Program-made: the position numbers and the translations under genes
Shown: positions 3,393 through 22,786 of the stretch, piece by piece
How positions within the stretch are numbered: position 1 is the first letter of the stretch
Layout: every line of letters begins with the position of its first letter
Notes under the pieces: generated by a model
What the model saw: only the letters and a program-made list of their open reading frames with translations
What the model was told of the DNA's origin: nothing
Database searches by the model: none
Virus record (IMG/VR): IMGVR_UViG_2630968876_000001
Coordinates: 64,001 to 87,166 of that record
Source of the DNA: a virus
Lineage: Duplodnaviria; Heunggongvirae; Uroviricota; Caudoviricetes
DNA length: 23,166 bases
Direction: 5' to 3' (one strand)

Positions 3393-4198
3393 GCAAATGC
3401 CTCGACGGTTGAGTAGTTAGAGTTGATCCACTCACTGACAGAAGGCGGAGTGACTTTTTCGATTGCTGCTTTGAGGATCGAACAGCGGCCTCTTAAAACG
3501 AGGCGCTTAATTTCCTGCTCAGAGAGTCCGCGGCAGTAGTCAGCCGACTCAATAGCTGCAGTGATATCAGGGTATTTTTCGCGGCTTTTAGGGATGTTGC
3601 AGGCAAGGTTGGTGCTGTCGGCTGTATCGAGGGGATAGTTACCCAGCACACGCCCGTCCAGCATACGCAGGCCGTGCACCTTCGTTGTAAACCGGCGCTT
3701 AACGTAGATAGCCTCAAATGCCTCTTTCATGCGGGCATGCCACAGCTTTGTACGGATAACAGCGTACTGGCCGGACGATCCGAAACAGACGCGTGGCCAT
3801 TCGCTGCAGAGCTCTACCAGCCGCTCAATACTTTCGTGGAGGTGCCAGACCGGCGCCGCCTTATCACGCAGGTGTAATGGCATTTCAGCAATCAGCTGGT
3901 CGTTATCTGCTTCGCCACCTTCGATCACGTCAGGAATTACAAAAAACTTCAGTTTGGGATCGGCGTAAAAGGTTTCTACCCGGCGATAAAAATCACTCCA
4001 GTTAATCTGCAGGCCGCTTTTCCAGGCGGAGAACGCGCCATTATCGAAGCCGACAGAATCCGCGTGTTCAAAGCTGGCTTTTAGCTGGTCCATACGCGCG
4101 AATGAGACAAACGCGCCAGCGCCTGCAACAGCGAGCTGGTGGATCTCACCGGCACAACCCCAGACAGGCGTGCCGTGATAGTGAGCAACAGCCGTCAT
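3389..4198 (-). CDS. Phage protein with a predicted tRNA-guanine transglycosylase (TGT)/DpdA-like TIM-barrel fold
   Basis: Motifs FDNGAFSAWK, IPDVI, PVWH, CFGSS, VHGLR and ADSTN occur in the order expected for TGT-family barrels. 4-bp ATGA overlaps with both rdgC and dmt. Fold assignment is inference. Confidence 0.6.
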   Translation of the reverse strand: MTAVAHYHGTPVWGCAGEIHQLAVAGAGAFVSFARMDQLKASFEHADSVGFDNGAFSAWKSGLQINWSDFYRRVETFYADPKLKFFVIPDVIEGGEADNDQLIAEMPLHLRDKAAPVWHLHESIERLVELCSEWPRVCFGSSGQYAVIRTKLWHARMKEAFEAIYVKRRFTTKVHGLRMLDGRVLGNYPLDTADSTNLACNIPKSREKYPDITAAIESADYCRGLSEQEIKRLVLRGRCSILKAAIEKVTPPSVSEWINSNYSTVEAFA

Positions 4199-5103
4199 CG
4201 CTTCGCCTCACCGCCCAGCGCATCCACCAGCCCGGAGAAGAAAGCAGAAAACTCGGACGTGAACAGCATAAAATCAGCCAGCATGCGTGCGCGCTGATCC
4301 TCACGGTCAATGTCGTCGTTCTGCTCAGTGAGCATGTCGGCATACTTAATGCCCTTGATGCTCAAATCGTCCGCCACACGGCAGAAAATGCGCTCCTGCC
4401 AGTCAAGGCTCAGGTGCGTGACTACTTTCCCGGCCTCAATATGCGCGCGCACTTCATCGCTGATTAGATCCTGCTTTTTACAGCGGATTTTGCCGCCTTC
4501 TTCCAGAATCGCCGCAAGTCCGGCCTCGTCGCCCAGCATAAAGCCCGCCGGTAGGTCGCCGGAGCGCAGCCATTCAGTCAGCGTGAGCTCGACAGGCTCC
4601 TCAGCCATCAGCGGCACAACCGGCAGCGAGCCGATAGTTTTGCGCAGCATGGCGAGCATGTCCTCTGCCGCTTTGGCGCTGGCCGCGTCAACGTAGATGC
4701 GGCTGTTCACGCTGTCGATCCACAGATAAGCCTGCGTGCGGCGGGTGAAAGCGCGCGGCAGCAGCGTGTGAAGGGCTTCATCCTTCAGGGAAACACGTTC
4801 GCTGCGACGTACCTTGCGCGCCTCTTCCTGCTCAATTTTCGCCACGCGATCGGCCACAAACTCGTTAAGCGTGGCGGCGGGCATGATCTTGCTTTCGGTC
4901 TGACAGCACAGCAGGTACTGCCCGTTTTCAGCCAGCAGTAACTCTTCTGAGGTAACGTTGATCCAGCCTGATTTAGCCATGTCCTGCGCGGCACAGGGAG
5001 TAAACGCCATCGTCTGCAGCTGCTGCGCCAGTTCTTCCGCGTCTAACGGAATATCCCGGCTCAGGCTGTAGACCATGATGTTTTTGAAGAAGGGAGATTT
5101 CAT
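4195..5103 (-). CDS. rdgC: Recombination-associated protein RdgC (P1 HrdC homolog)
   Basis: FFKNIMVYSL, ESKIMPA, ALHTLLPRAF, LRKTIGSLPVVP, GKVVTHLSLDW, ADFMLF and LVDALGGE match RdgC. ATG at 5103 preferred over TTG at 5127. Confidence 0.93.
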   Translation of the reverse strand: MKSPFFKNIMVYSLSRDIPLDAEELAQQLQTMAFTPCAAQDMAKSGWINVTSEELLLAENGQYLLCCQTESKIMPAATLNEFVADRVAKIEQEEARKVRRSERVSLKDEALHTLLPRAFTRRTQAYLWIDSVNSRIYVDAASAKAAEDMLAMLRKTIGSLPVVPLMAEEPVELTLTEWLRSGDLPAGFMLGDEAGLAAILEEGGKIRCKKQDLISDEVRAHIEAGKVVTHLSLDWQERIFCRVADDLSIKGIKYADMLTEQNDDIDREDQRARMLADFMLFTSEFSAFFSGLVDALGGEAKR

Positions 5104-5131
5104 GCGGCTATGTCTCTTAGATAACAATAAC

Positions 5132-5158
5132 CGCCATTCTAAATTAATGTTTTAGAAT
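5132..5158. promoter_or_regulatory. Putative repressor operator (inverted repeat ATTCTAAA-N7-TTTAGAAT) upstream of the rdgC-dmt operon
   Basis: ATTCTAAA at 5136-5143 and TTTAGAAT at 5151-5158. The motif recurs at 12171, 15062 and 17292. Confidence 0.6.
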
Positions 5159-5169
5159 TACACTTAAAA

Positions 5170-5778
5170 TCACTGACTGAACTCAAACTGAGGCGCTTTA
5201 GCGCTGAAGGTATCGCCTGAATCAAACACGGTTTTCCCGCCTGCTTTGACCTTCACATTACCGCCCACGTCGATAACCAGATCACCCGGCCCCAGCATGT
5301 ATATCTGCCCGCTTTCATTCATGCCTATGCGTGAACCACTGGCCGTGTTGGTGATTTCATACCCGCCACCAGCAGACCGGATCTCCAGCAGATTATTGCG
5401 GTGGGAGACAAAATCATCCGTTGCGCTCAGGGCAGGGCGCGCCGGTGCGCCTTCAACGGCTGGTGGCTCGTAGGCGCTGCCCTGTCCGGAGGCTTCAGGT
5501 GCCACACTCGGCACACCGCCTGGCGCTGATTGTGCCGCACCGGTGATAAGCGGCCGGCGCGTGTCCGGGCGCCCGCGCGCGTCGGTATACGGGAACTCTA
5601 CCCACACTTCATCCCCCGTTTTGCAGGGAACGAACGCGTTGCCTATCGGCAGCTGGTATTCAGCCCAGGGCAGCGTCTCCGCTTCGACGTCCGCCCATTG
5701 CGGCGTCAGGCGGATCTGCGCGCGCATGTGTCCTGCCGGGTCTTTGGTGGCCGTGATTACGGCGCGTTGCTTACTCAC
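5170..5778 (-). CDS. gp5: Baseplate spike/hub protein, P1 gp5-like (OB-fold gpV type)
   Basis: DPAGHMRAQIR, LPWAE, GDEVWVEFPY and APEASGQG match P1 gp5 as recalled. C-terminal beta-helix-like repeats. Confidence 0.85.
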   Translation of the reverse strand: MSKQRAVITATKDPAGHMRAQIRLTPQWADVEAETLPWAEYQLPIGNAFVPCKTGDEVWVEFPYTDARGRPDTRRPLITGAAQSAPGGVPSVAPEASGQGSAYEPPAVEGAPARPALSATDDFVSHRNNLLEIRSAGGGYEITNTASGSRIGMNESGQIYMLGPGDLVIDVGGNVKVKAGGKTVFDSGDTFSAKAPQFEFSQ

Positions 5779-14555: not shown

Positions 14556-14771
14556 ATGAAAACCATTGATAGCAGCACTGCACACGCAGCATGGGACGCT
14601 ACGATCGATACTGCGCTGAATGAGCCAGTAAAGATAACCCGGCAGGGGGAAAGCGTTGTAATGGTGTCCGGGAGCCTCTATGAGACGCTGCAGCAGCTGC
14701 TACTGGAAAAAGATATGGAGTATCTGCTGGAACGTCACGCAGGCACCTTTAAAGCGCTGGCTGACAGATAG
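14556..14771 (+). CDS. phd: Phd-family antitoxin with no adjacent doc
   Basis: GAGG RBS. EPVKITRQG, VMVS and the C-terminal LERHAGTFKALADR align with P1 Phd. Followed directly by a terminator. Confidence 0.8.
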   Translation: MKTIDSSTAHAAWDATIDTALNEPVKITRQGESVVMVSGSLYETLQQLLLEKDMEYLLERHAGTFKALADR

Positions 14772-17577: not shown

Positions 17578-17844
17578 ATGCCGGTAAGCAGAGCACAGCT
17601 ATTTACTCTGCGCAGAATGCGCAACGGAACCCGCTACATGATGCGGGGCGACAAGGGCTATGGCATTGAAGTTCGCTATGACGTTGCGACCGGGAACCGT
17701 GATGATGTTAGTTGCCGCAGTCTCGCACCGCTGATGCGCAGCGGGCTTATCCGCTTCAAGACCAAACCCACAGACATGACACGCTACTACGAAGTGGAGC
17801 TAACTCCGCAAGGTGTTACAGCAGCAAAAGGAAATATACAGTGA
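17578..17844 (+). CDS. Hypothetical protein, possibly winged-helix-like
   Basis: GGAGG RBS. The C-terminal VELTPQG motif is typical of wHTH wings. GTGA overlap with the next gene. Confidence 0.7.
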   Translation: MPVSRAQLFTLRRMRNGTRYMMRGDKGYGIEVRYDVATGNRDDVSCRSLAPLMRSGLIRFKTKPTDMTRYYEVELTPQGVTAAKGNIQ

Positions 17845-18758
17845 GCCTGCCTAATTTAAACCCATCAGCGCGGGAGCCGCTCGTGGTGAGCTTTTCAGGT
17901 GGCCAGTCGTCGGCGTTTATGTGTGACTTTCTGATACAGAACTATGCGGACGTGTTCGACTTTCACTTTGTCTTTGCTAATACAGGCCGGGAGCATCCTG
18001 AGACGCTCATATTTGCCGACAAGGTGGATAAGCTGTTTGGCCTTAACCTGATATGGCTGGAGGGAGTTACCAGCCCCGTACACGGCACTGGCATGACTTA
18101 CAGGGTTGTAACGTTTGAGACAGCAGCACGCAATGGCGAACCGTTTGAGCAGTTCATCAGCGTGGAGGGTATTCCTAACGTTTCCCGCCAGAAGTGTAGC
18201 GACTACCTGAAAACGCAAACTATCCGCTCATGGATGCGTGCTAACGGGCTTGCCCGCCGTGGCTGGTCTGCTAAAACGGCTATCGGTATGCGTGCTGACG
18301 AGCCGCAGCGGGCGGACATGGATAAAGCCTCAACCAAACGTTACAACCTGGTTTATCCGCTTTGCCACTGGGGCGGATTCACCAAGCGCGACGTTAACGA
18401 CTTCTGGGATGACATGCCATTTAAGCTGAACATTCCGCCGCACTATGGCAACTGCCTTACCTGCTTTAAAAAGAGCGACGCCAAGCTGTTTCTTATCGCC
18501 CACGAACACCCTGAATGGTTCTCATGGAACAACGATATGGAGAAGCGCTTTGGCAGGGTTAAAGCGGCTGAGGGGCATAGCTGGTGGCGCAGGAAGCGAG
18601 GCACCGATCAGCTGATGGAAGAGGCCGGACTGCATGACCACCAGCGCCTTATCTATCTGACTAAAACCGACCCTGACGACGGCGACGGTTGCACCTCTTC
18701 GTGCGATGCCTTCCAGAACGTCGTAGAAGATGAATTTGAAGAGGAGGGCGCAGTATGA
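17841..18758 (+). CDS. PAPS-reductase-like adenine nucleotide alpha-hydrolase family protein with Cys clusters
   Basis: PP-loop SFSGGQSS, FANTGREHPET, CSDYLK, IGMRADE, YPL, NCLTCF and C-terminal CTSSC. GTG start at 17841 inferred from the overlap. Confidence 0.8.
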   Translation: MSLPNLNPSAREPLVVSFSGGQSSAFMCDFLIQNYADVFDFHFVFANTGREHPETLIFADKVDKLFGLNLIWLEGVTSPVHGTGMTYRVVTFETAARNGEPFEQFISVEGIPNVSRQKCSDYLKTQTIRSWMRANGLARRGWSAKTAIGMRADEPQRADMDKASTKRYNLVYPLCHWGGFTKRDVNDFWDDMPFKLNIPPHYGNCLTCFKKSDAKLFLIAHEHPEWFSWNNDMEKRFGRVKAAEGHSWWRRKRGTDQLMEEAGLHDHQRLIYLTKTDPDDGDGCTSSCDAFQNVVEDEFEEEGAV

Positions 18759-19723: not shown

Positions 19724-19800
19724 ATGGCCTGCTGCCATGCTCAAAAAAGCCTAATATGCTTTACCAGAGCCACAGCAAGCGAATCATTAAGGGCGATTTT

Positions 19801-19998
19801 ATGAAAGTGACTGTCAATATTGATGATGAACTGTATGCGCAGGCGCTGGAGCTGGGTAAACCGGGCATGGGCGAAGCAGATATTCTGAATGAGGCATTAA
19901 AGACGTTTATCCGGGTGCAGGCGGCTAAAAAGCTGTCGGAGCTTGGCGGTGCCGCGCCGGATATGGCGAGCATTCAGCGCCATCAGCACCGCGATTAG
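19801..19998 (+). CDS. vapB: VapB-family (RHH-type) antitoxin with no adjacent vapC
   Basis: MKVTVNIDDELYAQALEL, NEALKTFIRVQAAKKLSELGG: the typical short VapB signature. ATG at 19801. Confidence 0.75.
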   Translation: MKVTVNIDDELYAQALELGKPGMGEADILNEALKTFIRVQAAKKLSELGGAAPDMASIQRHQHRD

Positions 19999-20136
19999 TC
20001 AGCCTTTAGTTATATCTTTTTGCGCTTCCCGGCGCGTGCTGGCTTCGATTTCTTTGCGGAGTTCAGCTGCGCGGGCTTTAACGCGAGCGCGACGTTCCGG
20101 GGTGAGCCTGTCCATTAATTCTTTCAGCGTTGCCAT
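19999..20136 (-). CDS. Mini-protein (45 aa) matching the N-terminus of HigA/XRE-type antitoxins, HTH absent (not in the ORF track)
   Basis: MATLKELMDRLTPERRARVKARAAELRKEIEASTRREAQKDITKG. GGTGG RBS. Its stop abuts the vapB stop. Confidence 0.6.
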   Translation of the reverse strand: MATLKELMDRLTPERRARVKARAAELRKEIEASTRREAQKDITKG

Positions 20137-20162
20137 GTTAAACCACCATCAAAATTGTGCTT

Positions 20163-20345
20163 TCAGTGATCAGCGAGCGGAGCGTCTAAATCTACTTCCA
20201 CACCAGCAGCTAACGCCTTAACTCTTTCCCAGTAAAGTACAGATACCGGGATAATGTTCTCTGGATATGTACTGATATCATGTCCAAGATAAGCCAGAAA
20301 CTGTGCTTCGTATTCAGGAGGCAGGGTGTTTTTCAGTATGGTCAT
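20163..20345 (-). CDS. Mini-protein (60 aa) matching the C-terminal half of PrlF/SohA antitoxins, AbrB-like domain absent
   Basis: FLAYLGHDISTYPE...KALAAGVEVDLDAPLAD parallels E. coli PrlF FLRFLDADIQNNPQ...KKLVAGMDVNIDDEIGD (recalled). GGAG RBS 5 nt before the ATG. Confidence 0.7.
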   Translation of the reverse strand: MTILKNTLPPEYEAQFLAYLGHDISTYPENIIPVSVLYWERVKALAAGVEVDLDAPLADH

Positions 20346-20361
20346 GATTTCTCCATATCAT

Positions 20362-20919
20362 TCATGAGTGCGTCAGGTGACGACGCTCAATCAATCTGGT
20401 GGCAATAGATTCCACTTCTGCAAAGTCCTTTGAGATACTGGCTCTTAGCGCCAGATTCCACTTACTGAGTATGCGGGCATTAACAGCCAACTCACTTCCC
20501 GCCTTAATCCGTCCGTTATCCGCCAGCCATTCAGCCACATCAGCCCAGTCCCACAGCGGCAACTGATTTTTGATGCGCTGTACCGGAGAAGGGAAGCCGC
20601 CTTTACCACGCGCGCCGTCTTTGAGCAGGCTGATTGCCTGGCGGGACATTTCAGTACTGGCAGCTATGTCACTGAGTCCGACAAGAGCGGAATCAACAGA
20701 ACTGACTATAGCGCCGATCCGGGCTGATTCAATGTGATCTACGGCAGACGCGATGGCAATATCCAGCGATTCAGCCTCGCGGTCAAACTCCAGGTAAACC
20801 GATTTGCCATAGGCACAGATAATCGCATCGCTGCAGCCGTTCGTAAAAAGCGCATCCTCAAGACCTGGAGTGTCATATGACACGCCTGAAAGCGTCAAAG
20901 CAAAGTTATAGAGCGGCAT
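20362..20919 (-). CDS. HicB-like N-terminal domain plus AlpA-like HTH (putative antitoxin), no upstream toxin
   Basis: N-terminal LEDALFTNGCSDA...LEFDREAESL. HTH LVGLSDIA...MSRQAI...FPSP...LWDWADVAEWL. This family normally follows a HicA-like gene (recalled, not verified). Confidence 0.6.
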   Translation of the reverse strand: MPLYNFALTLSGVSYDTPGLEDALFTNGCSDAIICAYGKSVYLEFDREAESLDIAIASAVDHIESARIGAIVSSVDSALVGLSDIAASTEMSRQAISLLKDGARGKGGFPSPVQRIKNQLPLWDWADVAEWLADNGRIKAGSELAVNARILSKWNLALRASISKDFAEVESIATRLIERRHLTHS

Positions 20920-21031
20920 ATTCACCCATTGTTGTACGACCGGAGGTACGGTAATCCGGTATCTTTCGGTCTACCTTATTAACTATGTTGTCAGCCGTCA
21001 ACGGTGATTGTGACTGAAACCGTTATGCAGA

Positions 21032-21091
21032 TATAACTAAATACAAAATATTATCACTAAAGCGTTGTATGTATAACTAAATATGGTTATA
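21032..21091 (+). promoter_or_regulatory. Putative autoregulatory operator for the RelE/HTH pair
   Basis: Direct repeat TATAACTAAATA at 21032 and 21072. Inverted repeat TATAAC-N8-GTTATA at 21072-21091. Confidence 0.45.
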
Positions 21092-21141
21092 TTGGTTTTG
21101 CAGTTGGTTGTACTTGTTCTTTAACAGCATGGAGAGGGAAG

Positions 21142-21417
21142 ATGCCAGAAGTAAATTGGTCCAAAAAGGCATCCAAACAGCTCGACAGGCTACCTCAGAG
21201 AGACGCTGATAACGTTGAAGATGTAGTGGAGGAGCTTGCAAAGTGGCCTGACATTCCTCACCTGACAGTTGAAAAGCTGACAGATGACAAAGAGAAGCGT
21301 ATGAAGCTGGTTGTCGGCAACTATCGTGTTTTCTGGAAAGTTGTAAAGGGTCAGCCAATAGTGATAGATATTCTGGAAGTGATACGCAGAACATCGACCA
21401 CTTATAAAAAGCGCTAA
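21142..21417 (+). CDS. RelE/HigB-family toxin
   Basis: VNWSKKASKQL, VGNYRVFW and VIRRTSTTY. GAGGG RBS. Confidence 0.8.
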   Translation: MPEVNWSKKASKQLDRLPQRDADNVEDVVEELAKWPDIPHLTVEKLTDDKEKRMKLVVGNYRVFWKVVKGQPIVIDILEVIRRTSTTYKKR

Positions 21418-21570: not shown

Positions 21571-21945
21571 ATGAGCACAATACAATATCTGACTGACGCA
21601 ACCGGCAAACGCACCAGTGCAGTTATCCCTATTGAACTGTTTGAACGACTGATGGCCGAAAGCAATCTTGATGAAGCCTTTGAATCCGTGCCTTACACGC
21701 CAGGCCCTGATGATGATGAAACCATTCCTCATGATGTGCTTAAAATCAGACGCAGACAGTCGGTGCCGTTGCACGTTGCCTGGCGCCTGTATCGCGGTTT
21801 ATCACAGGAAGAAGTGGCGCGTGAGCTGGGTATTACTCAGGCTGGCGTATCAAACATGGAGTCGCGCAAAAAGCCTCAAAAGCAGACTCTGGAAAAACTG
21901 GCCGCGCTGTATGAGTGCAGGCCTACACAGCTTTATATTGACTGA
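21571..21945 (+). CDS. HigA-like antitoxin with a C-terminal XRE HTH
   Basis: AWRLYRGLSQEEVARELGITQAGVSNME and PQKQTLEKLA. AAGGAG RBS. Start is 21565 or 21571. Confidence 0.82.
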   Translation: MSTIQYLTDATGKRTSAVIPIELFERLMAESNLDEAFESVPYTPGPDDDETIPHDVLKIRRRQSVPLHVAWRLYRGLSQEEVARELGITQAGVSNMESRKKPQKQTLEKLAALYECRPTQLYID

Positions 21946-22549: not shown

Positions 22550-22756
22550 ATGAAATGTCCGACATGCGGTGCAGAGGCTTTTGTTTATGACACACGCGAC
22601 GTCCAGCTGAATACGGGCAACCCGGATGACATTGTAGAGGATGTGAAAGGGAGTCATTGCCTGGCCTGCGGAGAGGTGATCGTGGATATGTCAGAGGCCG
22701 ATTCATTCATGAGGAAGGTCAGCGCGCTGGAAGCTGCAGCGGCACACAATCATTGA
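22550..22756 (+). CDS. MqsA/YgiT-type Zn-finger mini-protein (68 aa), HTH absent, no mqsR
   Basis: MKCPTC...HCLACGE...EADSFMRKV parallels E. coli MqsA MKCPVC...YCVHCEE...ESDAFMAQV. AAGGAG RBS and a terminator follows. Confidence 0.8.
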   Translation: MKCPTCGAEAFVYDTRDVQLNTGNPDDIVEDVKGSHCLACGEVIVDMSEADSFMRKVSALEAAAAHNH

Positions 22757-22762
22757 CCCAAC

Positions 22763-22786
22763 AGCCCGCATCGAGCGGGCTTTTTT
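22763..22786 (+). terminator. Rho-independent terminator
   Basis: AGCCCGC-ATCGA-GCGGGCT followed by a T-run. Confidence 0.85.

What the first reader, a model, noticed from the sequence alone, without database searches (positions are those of the whole stretch)
19801..20919. Cassette of four unrelated antitoxin-like genes with no toxin: candidate antitoxin-decoy (anti-TA defence) system
Seen in sequence: four tightly packed ORFs. VapB-like is on the + strand and converges on a minus-strand run of HicB-like+HTH, PrlF C-terminal half and HigA-type N-terminus, with gaps of 16, 26 and 0 bp. No PIN/VapC, HicA, YhaV or RelE/Gp49 ORF lies among them. Two more orphans (Phd, MqsA Zn-finger) occur elsewhere in the window, giving six from six families. 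Established: many type II TA systems act as anti-phage defences, and phages can carry antitoxin-like inhibitors such as T4 Dmd and orphan DarG-like proteins. Inference: this phage-plasmid carries a multi-family panel of toxin-neutralising modules, either to disarm host TA/abortive-infection systems or to cancel addiction by competing plasmids. Three of the six lack the DNA-binding domain yet have good RBSs and start codons, which fits function better than random decay.
Basis: partly seen in the sequence, partly recalled or inferred. Interest (0 to 1): 0.85.

Follow-up and report, generated by a model that had tools for sequence, protein, structure and literature searches.

The report
Toxin-less antitoxin panel on phage-plasmid
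A P1-like plasmid-prophage of Pantoea carries a conserved block of four antitoxin-type genes (six on the whole replicon) whose matching toxins are missing; three are trimmed to just the toxin-gripping part yet mostly kept by selection, which fits an untested shield against toxin-antitoxin systems of rival plasmids or the host.

Summary
Window 19801-20919 carries four packed ORFs:
- a full-length VapB;
- a 45-aa protein that is the N-terminal toxin-binding segment of Gp49/HigB-partnered HigA antitoxins;
- a 60-aa PrlF C-terminal half;
- a 185-aa ferredoxin-like plus winged-HTH protein. In relatives this gene follows a 74-aa HicA-fold gene that is absent here.

Orphan Phd and a Zn-ribbon-only MqsA were also confirmed. 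The only toxin on the 87-kb replicon is an adjacent RelE/ParE, which has its own HTH antitoxin.

The 1.13-kb block recurs as a unit at 86% identity in a sister lineage.
- dN/dS is 0.13-0.29 for three of the four genes.
- The 45-aa gene is clearly selected (pN 0.13 vs pS 0.66).
- PrlF-C is ambiguous (0.56-1.36).

Sister phage-plasmids carry complete hicA-like, vapBC and phd-doc pairs at the same hotspot. Conjugative and Pantoea plasmids carry prlF-yhaV.

My best reading (about 0.5) is a toxin-neutralising panel that leans towards anti-addiction against rival plasmids. No binding, rescue or expression was shown.

The idea is not new: anti-addiction modules, DarG-like phage orphans and leading-region orphan antitoxins are already described. 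The multi-family, domain-minimised and conserved form is a new variant. Earlier scan notes called truncated HigA genes in D6-like phage-plasmids decay; here selection argues otherwise.

The parts
19801..19998 (+). Full-length VapB-type antitoxin gene (65 aa) with no vapC partner. It converges on the minus-strand operon with a 0-bp gap.
   Evidence: PF09957 E 1.2e-7, above the cut-off. PGAP name. It is 65% identical to a VapB paired with a PIN VapC on E. coli contigs of 77-122 kb and 64% identical (36 aa) to a sister phage-plasmid VapB; the related contig pairs such a VapB with a PIN gene. dN/dS is 0.20-0.29.
19999..20136 (-). 'Mini-HigA' (45 aa): the N-terminal toxin-binding segment of a Gp49/HigB-partnered HigA antitoxin, without the HTH. 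It is the last gene of the minus-strand operon.
   Evidence: tblastn matches to the N-termini of 99-131-aa HTH antitoxin ORFs that lie behind Gp49-like toxin ORFs. The family is 41-55 aa long in all locus variants. For codons 1-31, pN is 0.13 and pS 0.66, P about 3e-4. A GGTGG RBS is read.
20163..20345 (-). PrlF C-terminal half (60 aa), lacking the AbrB-type DNA-binding domain.
   Evidence: PF15937 positions 54-98 of 99, E 1.5e-8. Short homologues of 58-60 aa at 74-85% identity. 64% identical to the PrlF of the prlF-yhaV pair on pECL_B. dN/dS is about 0.33 in the C-terminal half and 0.8-1.7 in the N-terminal half. A GGAGA RBS is read.
20362..20919 (-). First gene of the operon (185 aa): ferredoxin-like N-domain, excisionase/MerR-type winged HTH and two long helices. 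It is the antitoxin-position partner of a HicA-fold toxin that is missing here.
   Evidence: AF2 model pLDDT 95.6. VIA Z is 6.3-6.9 to excisionases and Z 6.5-6.8 to ferredoxin-like domains. phrog_2620. A 74-84-aa gene lies upstream in all four relatives inspected among about 350 plasmid matches. dN/dS is 0.10-0.15.
20920..21141 (.). Divergent intergenic region that should hold the operon promoter. It has three TATAACTAAA repeats at 20-bp spacing (21032-21081) and an imperfect inverted repeat. No HicA-like gene is present.
   Evidence: repeats. tblastn of the 74-84-aa toxins against the replicon found nothing.
21142..21417 (+). RelE/ParE-family toxin, the only toxin gene on the replicon. It is adjacent to the block but not part of the conserved unit.
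   Evidence: PF05016 28.5 bits. phrog_1213. It lies outside the homology block shared with L010.
21571..21945 (+). HTH_3 antitoxin of the RelE/ParE toxin (PGAP start).
   Evidence: PF01381 E 6e-11, with a weak RelB-like N-terminus. PGAP annotation.
22550..22756 (+). MqsA N-terminal Zn-ribbon domain alone (68 aa), with its own RBS and terminator.
   Evidence: PF15731 positions 1-61 of 131, E 9e-13. Terminator at 22763-22781. A sister plasmid carries a 67-aa version at only 32% identity. Pantoea soli has a 58-aa orphan version.
14556..14771 (+). Orphan Phd antitoxin (71 aa) followed by a hairpin-plus-T-run that reads as an intrinsic terminator; no doc.
   Evidence: 59% identical to the L010 Phd, which is paired with Doc/Fic. 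PF02604 E 3.6e-4, below the cut-off. No Fic or doc on the replicon.

Best explanation
The block is a conserved accessory module of a P1/D6-like Pantoea phage-plasmid. It sits in a swap-prone hotspot downstream of repA-phd-umuDC.

It consists of a three-gene operon and a convergent gene:
- The operon is a winged-HTH antitoxin-type protein, then PrlF-C, then mini-HigA. The first gene probably autoregulates the promoter, so the two DNA-binding-less passengers ride on its control.
- The convergent gene is a full-length VapB.

All four descend from type II toxin-antitoxin modules whose toxins are no longer on the replicon. The most likely function is to supply free toxin-binding proteins that neutralise cognate toxins made by other elements. 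The first candidates are the addiction toxins of competing sibling phage-plasmids and conjugative plasmids, which would allow take-over without post-segregational killing. Host TA or abortive-infection toxins are the second.

Shown here: gene structure, family origin, absence of toxins, conservation as a unit, purifying selection on three of the four genes, and complete cognate pairs in rival elements.

Inferred: the operon structure and autoregulation, toxin binding, and the biological target.
For: (1) Toxin-less replicon.
- Six-frame Pfam searches found no PIN, HicA, Fic/Doc, Gp49 or PemK.
- tblastn with VapC, Doc, Gp49, YhaV, MqsR, PemK-like and HicA-like proteins found nothing.
- PGAP names only one toxin, the RelE/ParE.

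(2) Unit conservation. Window 19789-20920 matches L010/L011/L012 at 86% identity, with unrelated flanks.

(3) Selection.
- 185-aa gene: dN/dS 0.10-0.15, with dS 0.5-1.5.
- VapB: 0.20-0.29.
- Mini-HigA, codons 1-31: pN 0.13 against pS 0.66, P about 3e-4.
- Lengths are kept at 41-55 aa and 58-60 aa across the four locus variants.

(4) The parts retained are the toxin-binding ones.
- In the solved S. pneumoniae HigBA complex, the HigA N-terminal beta1-alpha1-alpha2 forms the HigB interface (PMC7984235).
- PrlF-C keeps the C-terminal motif. In lineage B the last 19 residues are identical to those of the pECL_B PrlF that is paired with YhaV.
- MqsA keeps only the Zn domain.

(5) Cognate complete pairs exist in competitors.
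- HicA-fold 74-aa gene plus a 183-aa gene in L019, L021 and L066. The structural top four of 48,161 chains are HicA toxins, Z 4.6-5.4.
- vapBC in a sister contig.
- phd-doc in L010.
- prlF-yhaV on conjugative and Pantoea plasmids.

(6) Precedent. Orphan antitoxins are enriched in plasmid leading-region anti-defence islands, with umuD used as a landmark (PMC11541004). DarG-like orphans in phages have been validated (PMC11825919).
Against:
- PrlF-C has dN/dS 0.56-1.36. Between the window and L010 it has nine nonsynonymous and no purely synonymous codon changes. This could be relaxed constraint.
- The orphans are only 59-88% identical to the paired antitoxins of sister plasmids, and type II antitoxins are usually specific.
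- In S. pneumoniae, HigA alpha1/alpha2-mimicking peptides disrupted HigBA and released active toxin. A fragment could therefore activate a toxin rather than neutralise it.
- The zero-base junction between the VapB and mini-HigA stop codons, with no terminator, looks like a recombination scar.
- Earlier scan notes judged truncated HigA genes in D6-like phage-plasmids to be decay.
Confidence: 0.5

Rival explanations
1. Erosion debris. The hotspot turns over TA cassettes, toxins are lost first because their loss is harmless, and the antitoxin genes and gene fragments are neutral leftovers with no current function.
For: - The locus is highly mosaic, with at least four variants that swap HicA-like, PemK-like, vapBC, RelE/ParE and colicin modules.
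- Junctions fall at gene ends. The last codons of the 185-aa gene change where PrlF-C is inserted.
- PrlF-C dN/dS is near 1.
- Similar truncated HigA genes in D6-like phage-plasmids were judged remnants.
- TA erosion is documented (PMC13617665).
Against: - There is significant purifying selection on mini-HigA codons 1-31 at pS 0.66.
- dN/dS is 0.10-0.29 for the 185-aa gene and VapB.
- No frameshift or stop occurs in any of 6-8 diverged copies.
- RBS and start codons are intact.
- MqsA-N-only genes at 32% and 52% identity keep the same domain limits.
- The Phd and MqsA-N genes are each followed by their own terminator-like hairpin.
Confidence: 0.15
2. A regulatory module rather than an anti-toxin one. 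The 185-aa excisionase-type winged-HTH protein, the VapB RHH protein and Phd act as transcription or lysogeny regulators of the phage-plasmid. The small passengers have unrelated roles.
For: - The 185-aa family is large: 1627 representatives at E<=1e-3. It is annotated as excisionase/transcriptional regulator (phrog_2620; SSU5 annotation).
- It survives toxin loss under strong constraint.
- An operator-like repeat array lies in the divergent promoter region.
Against: - This does not explain why the DNA-binding-less proteins keep exactly the toxin-binding segments.
- It does not explain why six different antitoxin families accumulate on one replicon.
- In most relatives inspected the 185-aa gene is tightly linked to a HicA-fold gene.
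Confidence: 0.2
3. A self-contained, unrecognised module. One of the small proteins is itself a toxin or effector held in check by its neighbours, so the block is a new TA or defence system rather than a set of orphans. In lineage B, for example, PrlF-C and/or mini-HigA would be the antitoxin of the PemK-like protein.
For: - Mini-HigA is always the last gene behind either the winged-HTH gene or PrlF-C.
- In lineage B a 154-aa PemK/MazF-like gene has no other candidate antitoxin nearby.
- Another standalone 60-aa PrlF-C follows an unknown 198-aa gene in an unrelated genome.
Against: - Neither small protein resembles a toxin. One is a charged helix homologous to antitoxin N-termini and the other an acidic antitoxin tail.
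- The window lacks the PemK-like gene.
- The block's members occur separately in other variants.
Confidence: 0.1

Closest known systems
Anti-addiction modules (chromosomal ccd of Erwinia chrysanthemi protecting against F-plasmid CcdB; Saavedra De Bast et al. 2008, as cited in PMC12548467 and PMC13617665)
   Same: Antitoxin activity held by one replicon neutralises the addiction toxin of another, so loss or displacement of the rival is not lethal.
   Different: The known case is a complete chromosomal TA pair of one family. Here there are toxin-less genes from six families on a phage-plasmid, three of them reduced to the toxin-binding part. No activity was tested.
Orphan DarG-like antitoxin counter-defence in T4-like phages (PMC11825919)
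   Same: A mobile virus carries a stand-alone antitoxin homologue, without a toxin, to defeat a TA system.
   Different: That antitoxin is an enzyme that reverses DNA ADP-ribosylation, in a lytic phage. Here the genes are proteic type II binders in a temperate phage-plasmid, and there are several families together.
Orphan antitoxins in anti-defence islands of plasmid leading regions (Samuel et al. 2024, PMC11541004)
   Same: Orphan antitoxins such as hipB sit next to a complete higA/relE-type pair, near umuD homologues, and are proposed to inhibit rival-MGE or host TA systems. The window has the same layout of umuDC, then orphans, then a RelE/ParE pair.
   Different: Those elements are conjugative and transferred as ssDNA. 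This replicon is non-mobilizable and P1-like. The domain-minimised forms and a conserved four-gene unit were not noted in the passages read.
Parent type II systems: hicAB, prlF-yhaV, higBA (Gp49/HTH type, e.g. PDB 6AF3 and 7EWC), vapBC, mqsRA, phd-doc
   Same: Each ORF is homologous to, or syntenic with, the antitoxin of one of these systems.
   Different: The toxin is absent in every case. PrlF lacks its AbrB domain. HigA lacks its HTH and dimerisation strand. MqsA lacks its HTH. The 'HicB' has a ferredoxin-like rather than HicB N-domain.
T4 Dmd (antitoxin mimic against RnlA/LsoA; cited in PMC12548467)
   Same: A phage-encoded small protein binds and neutralises host TA toxins.
   Different: Dmd is not homologous to the host antitoxins. 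The proteins here are clear homologues or fragments of antitoxins.

Membership tests
VapB antitoxin (PF09957) of vapBC | Sequence match to the family model above the curated cut-off, over the full length | tested here: met
   31.9 bits against 23.4, model positions 1-47 of 47.
VapB antitoxin (PF09957) of vapBC | Adjacent downstream PIN-domain VapC toxin | tested here: not met
   No PIN on the replicon. The next gene is the convergent 45-aa ORF. Relatives at 64-65% identity do have a VapC.
PrlF/SohA antitoxin (PF15937, NF007429) | N-terminal AbrB/SpoVT-type DNA-binding domain | tested here: not met
   Only model positions 54-98 of 99 are matched. NCBIfam scores 36 bits against a cut-off of 125.
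PrlF/SohA antitoxin (PF15937, NF007429) | C-terminal acidic toxin-binding tail | tested here: met
   E 1.5e-8. 64% identical to the pECL_B PrlF C-terminus.
PrlF/SohA antitoxin (PF15937, NF007429) | Adjacent YhaV toxin | tested here: not met
   tblastn with five YhaV proteins found nothing. The Pfam six-frame search was uninformative because its control was silent.
HigA antitoxin of Gp49/HigB toxins (HTH_3/HTH_37) | N-terminal toxin-binding segment | tested here: met
   43-71% identity over 24-42 residues to 29 antitoxin ORFs of 99-131 aa. The interface role comes from PDB 6AF3 as described in PMC7984235.
HigA antitoxin of Gp49/HigB toxins (HTH_3/HTH_37) | HTH DNA-binding domain and C-terminal dimerisation strand | tested here: not met
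   The ORF ends at residue 45. No HTH family matched.
HigA antitoxin of Gp49/HigB toxins (HTH_3/HTH_37) | Upstream Gp49/HigB toxin | tested here: not met
   No PF05973 on the replicon. tblastn was negative.
HicB antitoxin of hicAB | HicB-type N-terminal domain (partial RNase H-like fold; this description is from my own knowledge) | tested here: not met
   The model is beta-alpha-beta-beta-alpha-beta, ferredoxin-like. No HicB appears among the Foldseek or VIA hits, and there is no Pfam HicB hit.
HicB antitoxin of hicAB | C-terminal DNA-binding domain | tested here: met
   Excisionase/MerR-type winged HTH, residues 77-141, Z 6.3-6.9.
HicB antitoxin of hicAB | Upstream HicA toxin | tested here: not met
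   Absent from the window and the replicon. Present in relatives as a 74-aa HicA-fold gene.
MqsA antitoxin (PF15731) | N-terminal Zn-ribbon plus C-terminal HTH, with MqsR upstream | tested here: not met
   Only positions 1-61 of 131 are matched. tblastn with E. coli MqsR was negative.
Anti-TA counter-defence or anti-addiction protein | Binds and neutralises a toxin encoded by another replicon | not testable with these tools
Co-expression rescue is needed.

The most novel reading that the evidence does not exclude
Phage-plasmids maintain dedicated 'mini-antitoxins': toxin-binding segments of HigA, PrlF and MqsA stripped of their DNA-binding domains. These are expressed as passengers of an autoregulated antitoxin operon. 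Together with full-length orphans they form a broad-spectrum shield, which lets the element invade cells protected or addicted by several TA families at once.
Probability: 0.3. Interest if true: 0.8.

Novelty: new variant of a known kind. Interest (0 to 1): 0.58.

Why it matters
Type II TA systems act both as plasmid addiction devices and as anti-phage defences. How temperate and plasmid-like phages cope with many of them at once is largely unknown.

A conserved, selected, multi-family set of toxin-less antitoxins would give a concrete and easily testable example of proteic anti-TA counter-measures. That holds especially for minimal toxin-binding forms that cannot autoregulate.

It would also show how TA modules are recycled into weapons in competition between sibling mobile elements. 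Finally, it warns annotators that short 'truncated antitoxin' ORFs on mobile elements are not always pseudogenes.

Tried and rejected
- **Sequence and fold searches.**
  - Foldseek against PDB gave nothing at E<=1e-3 for either model. VIA-align was needed.
  - A PDB profile search with the 45-aa family gave only chance hits.
  - The Atlas gave only a weak HTH_37 lead, score 0.86.
- **Silent controls.** Six-frame Pfam searches for YhaV and MqsR are uninformative because the control genomes did not ring. I replaced them with tblastn.
- **Missed Phd.** The six-frame PF02604 search missed the Phd gene. tblastn and a direct hmmscan found it.
- **Expression.** The runs are contigs only. One 'RNA?' run holds the region as an 8.4-kb contig, and one RNA-seq run holds a relative that lacks the three small genes. 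Nothing can be said about transcription.
- **False positive.** L113 is a phage structural protein that shares a short word with PrlF-C.
- **Hidden toxin.** The idea of a toxin in the 222-bp region upstream of the 185-aa gene was rejected. There is no homologue and only a 31-aa overlapping ORF.
Full report
**Context**

The window is the last 23 kb of an 87,166-bp record (G000, window = 64001-87166). It is 100% identical to plasmid pPSP-26e of Pantoea sp. PSNIH1 (CP009882.1). It also matches a 95.6-kb plasmid filed under Acinetobacter venetianus that carries an extra Tn3/blaTEM-1/blaCTX-M-3 insert.

The annotation shows a P1/D6-like phage-plasmid: portal, terminase, tail and baseplate genes, ddrA, an Lpa-type late activator, ParM and RepA. 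Earlier scan notes agree.

The cassette lies in the accessory stretch repA - phd - umuDC - PAPS-reductase-like gene - three small backbone genes - cassette - RelE/ParE pair - 147-aa gene - MqsA-N.

**Observation**

Four ORFs lie exactly as described:
- VapB-like, 19801-19998 (+), 65 aa.
- A 45-aa ORF, 19999-20136 (-).
- A 60-aa ORF, 20163-20345 (-).
- A 185-aa ORF, 20362-20919 (-). This is the PGAP ATG start; a GTG at 20925 would give 187 aa.

The gaps are 0, 26 and 16 bp. The two small minus-strand genes have GGAGA and GGTGG Shine-Dalgarno motifs 5-6 nt before their ATG codons (read).

**Families**

*VapB.* It matches PF09957 over the whole model, above the cut-off.

*The 60-aa protein.* It matches only positions 54-98 of the 99-position PrlF model and is far below the NCBIfam equivalog cut-off. 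It is therefore the C-terminal half without the AbrB-type domain.

*The 45-aa protein.*
- It has no Pfam, PHROG or PDB match.
- A pattern scan of 185,579 genomes found 29 loci whose 99-131-aa ORFs share its first 29-38 residues, including an identical MATLKELM start.
- Two of these ORFs were scanned and carry HTH_3/HTH_37.
- Their nearest solved relatives are M. tuberculosis HigA2/HigA3 and S. pneumoniae HigA.
- A Gp49-like toxin ORF ends just before the antitoxin start in every locus where one was sought (19 distinct sequences). The two scanned match Gp49 (PF05973).
- In the S. pneumoniae HigBA structure, the HigA N-terminal beta1-alpha1-alpha2 forms the interface with HigB, and the HTH lies further downstream (PMC7984235).

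*The 185-aa protein.*
- It has no Pfam family.
- It belongs to a large family: 1627 cluster representatives at E<=1e-3, phrog_2620.
- A high-confidence model (pLDDT 95.6) shows three parts: a ferredoxin-like beta-alpha-beta-beta-alpha-beta domain (residues 1-76), an excisionase/MerR-type winged HTH (77-141; Z 6.3-6.9 to 6HN7, 8C3T and 4J2N) and two long helices.
- No HicB appears among the structural hits, so 'HicB-like' fails as a fold statement.
- It holds as a synteny statement. The gene matched about 350 plasmids and phages SSU5 and Cyrano. In all four relatives whose annotation was inspected (Pantoea, Citrobacter, phage Cyrano) it is preceded by a 74-84-aa gene.
- Conversely, about 30 of 46 viral loci holding the 74-aa gene show a 149-214-aa ORF directly downstream.
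- That small protein has no Pfam HicA hit.
- It folds as alpha-beta-beta-beta-alpha (pLDDT 86).
- In an exhaustive comparison with 48,161 chains, its four best matches are all HicA toxins: 5YRZ_D Z 5.4 with 58 of 58 residues aligned, then 6G26, 1WHZ and 4P78.
- It is absent from this replicon.

**Toxins on the replicon**

- Six-frame Pfam searches found no PIN, HicA, Fic/Doc, Gp49 or PemK domain. They found one ParE/RelE domain, at window 21142-21417.
- The YhaV and MqsR family searches were uninformative because their controls were silent.
- I therefore fetched real YhaV, MqsR, VapC, Doc, Gp49 and PemK-like proteins from relatives and ran tblastn against the whole replicon. There was no hit.
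- The RelE/ParE gene is followed by its own HTH_3 antitoxin. It lies outside the conserved block.

The two further orphans were also found:
- **Phd**, 14556-14771, is 59% identical to a sister plasmid's Phd that is paired with Doc. A hairpin followed by a T-run, which reads as an intrinsic terminator, lies just downstream.
- **MqsA-N**, 22550-22756, has only its Zn-ribbon (model positions 1-61 of 131), with its own RBS and terminator.

**Conservation and locus variants**

Relatives of the small proteins led to sister P1-like elements on 83-95-kb contigs.

| Variant | Loci | Gene order |
|---|---|---|
| A | window, L010-L012, L112 | 185-aa gene, PrlF-C, mini-HigA, convergent VapB |
| B | L013-L018 | PemK/MazF-like 154-aa gene, PrlF-C (58 aa), mini-HigA (41 or 55 aa) |
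| C | L019, L020, L066 | HicA-like 74 aa, 183-aa gene, mini-HigA (46 aa) |
| D | L021-L023 | As C, followed by a colicin and its immunity gene. One contig has a complete vapBC pair divergent from the 183-aa gene and lacks the HicA-like gene. |

The window aligns to L010 over exactly 19789-20920 at 86% identity, with unrelated flanks. The four genes therefore travel as a unit.

Identity within the unit is mosaic: 78% in the 185-aa gene and 93-95% in the three small genes.

**Selection**

| Gene | Result |
|---|---|
| 185-aa gene | dN/dS 0.10-0.15, dS 0.5-1.5 |
| VapB | 0.20-0.29, against both an orphan and a VapC-paired relative |
| Mini-HigA, codons 1-31 | pN 0.13 vs pS 0.66 (window vs L016), binomial P about 3e-4; similar in other pairs; the tail after residue 31 is free to vary |
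| PrlF-C, whole gene | 1.36 against L010 (nine nonsynonymous, no purely synonymous codon changes); 0.56-0.70 against variant B |
| PrlF-C, by half | About 0.33 in the C-terminal 32 codons; 0.8-1.7 in the N-terminal 26 codons |

- The mini-HigA result is the key argument against the pseudogene reading. Earlier scan notes gave that reading for truncated HigA genes in D6-like phage-plasmids.
- PrlF-C is the weak member. With 58 codons, relaxed constraint and diversifying selection cannot be told apart.
- MqsA-N of the window and of L011 share only 32% identity, yet both stop at the end of the Zn domain. Pantoea soli has a 58-aa orphan version.
- Another standalone 60-aa PrlF-C exists in an unrelated genome.

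**Where the cognate toxins are**

- The HicA-fold toxin, VapC and Doc are found complete at the same hotspot of sister phage-plasmids.
- The closest full-length PrlF is 64% identical over the retained part. It sits with YhaV on the conjugative plasmid pECL_B of Enterobacter cloacae, next to another lone vapB gene.
- Closely similar PrlF genes are annotated on 84-90-kb Citrobacter and Enterobacter plasmids, though their neighbours were not inspected.
- A 219-kb Pantoea ananatis plasmid carries a prlF-yhaV pair whose PrlF is 50% identical.
- The last 19 residues of variant-B PrlF-C are identical to those of the pECL_B PrlF.

The predicted targets are thus mostly plasmid-borne, in elements that would compete for the same hosts.

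**Interpretation**

The data support a functional, toxin-less panel rather than debris. The most economical mechanism is toxin sequestration in trans.

I favour the anti-addiction version, meaning protection from post-segregational killing when a rival plasmid is displaced. Disarming host abortive-infection TA systems is the second option.

I infer that the three minus-strand genes form one operon. The spacers are 16 and 26 bp, each gene has an RBS, and no terminator was predicted on the coding (minus) strand between them. The winged-HTH protein would then supply the autoregulated promoter that the DNA-binding-less passengers cannot provide. An array of three TATAACTAAA repeats at 20-bp spacing in the divergent promoter region is a candidate operator.

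One caveat comes from the literature. HigA alpha1/alpha2-mimicking peptides released active HigB from its complex, so a fragment could in principle activate a toxin rather than silence it.

**Novelty**

The idea has clear precedents:
- anti-addiction modules (cited in PMC12548467 and PMC13617665);
- a validated DarG-like orphan antitoxin in T4-like phages (PMC11825919);
- orphan antitoxins noted beside complete higA/relE pairs and umuD in plasmid leading-region anti-defence islands, with the same two functions proposed (PMC11541004).

What I did not find described is a conserved multi-family unit in a phage-plasmid that includes selected, domain-minimised antitoxins. I class it as a new variant of a known kind, of moderate to good interest. 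Every prediction is testable with simple co-expression assays.

Noticed in passing
window 21286 (inside the RelE/ParE toxin gene 21142-21417): In one public run (X1) an otherwise identical 8.4-kb contig leaves the window sequence at 21286. It continues with letters that look like a Tn3-family terminal inverted repeat (this identification is from memory). In that variant the replicon's only toxin gene appears to be interrupted.
   Followed up: no
window 21032-21092: Three direct repeats of TATAACTAAA lie at exactly 20-bp spacing, with an imperfect inverted repeat, between the 185-aa operon and the RelE/ParE operon. This is operator-like. It is unknown which repressor would bind it.
   Followed up: partly
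L013-L018 (e.g. L016:3296-3760): Sister phage-plasmids replace the HicA-like and winged-HTH pair with a 154-aa PemK/MazF-like protein (phrog_15698). This protein has no canonical antitoxin. PrlF-C and mini-HigA downstream are the only candidates, which suggests a possible toxin-first module of a new composition.
   Followed up: partly
L021-L023 (e.g. L021:4415-6315): In another sister lineage the same hotspot carries a colicin A-type pore-forming bacteriocin and its immunity gene, directly after mini-HigA. The hotspot therefore collects inter-strain conflict genes in general.
   Followed up: no
L019:300-476 and L053:3429-3602: A 58-aa RelB/DinJ-type protein, apparently only the RHH part, recurs as a lone gene in sister elements. 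In L053 it lies just downstream of another orphan VapB. This is a truncation of the opposite kind: the DNA-binding part is kept.
   Followed up: no
CP060164.1 (L001, L003, L004): The same phage-plasmid is 100% identical over the 4-kb region compared and carries a Tn3/TEM-1/ISEc9-CTX-M-3 insert. It is deposited as a plasmid of Acinetobacter venetianus from oil, which is an unexpected host for a Pantoea P1-like element. It may be a contaminant or mis-assignment.
   Followed up: no
L114 (pECL_B, record 4105-5504): On the conjugative plasmid pECL_B a lone AbrB-type vapB gene sits directly upstream of prlF-yhaV, among DUF1380 and DUF4942 genes. This is another orphan antitoxin beside a complete pair.
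   Followed up: no
window 17712-18758: A PAPS-reductase-domain gene lies with three small backbone genes between umuDC and the cassette. In sister elements a SAM-methyltransferase occupies this place. The genes may be DNA-modification or anti-restriction cargo.
   Followed up: no
L062:1489-2331: A standalone 60-aa PrlF C-terminal protein follows an unannotated 198-aa protein with no Pfam family, in an unrelated bacterial genome. This may be another toxin-first pair.
   Followed up: partly
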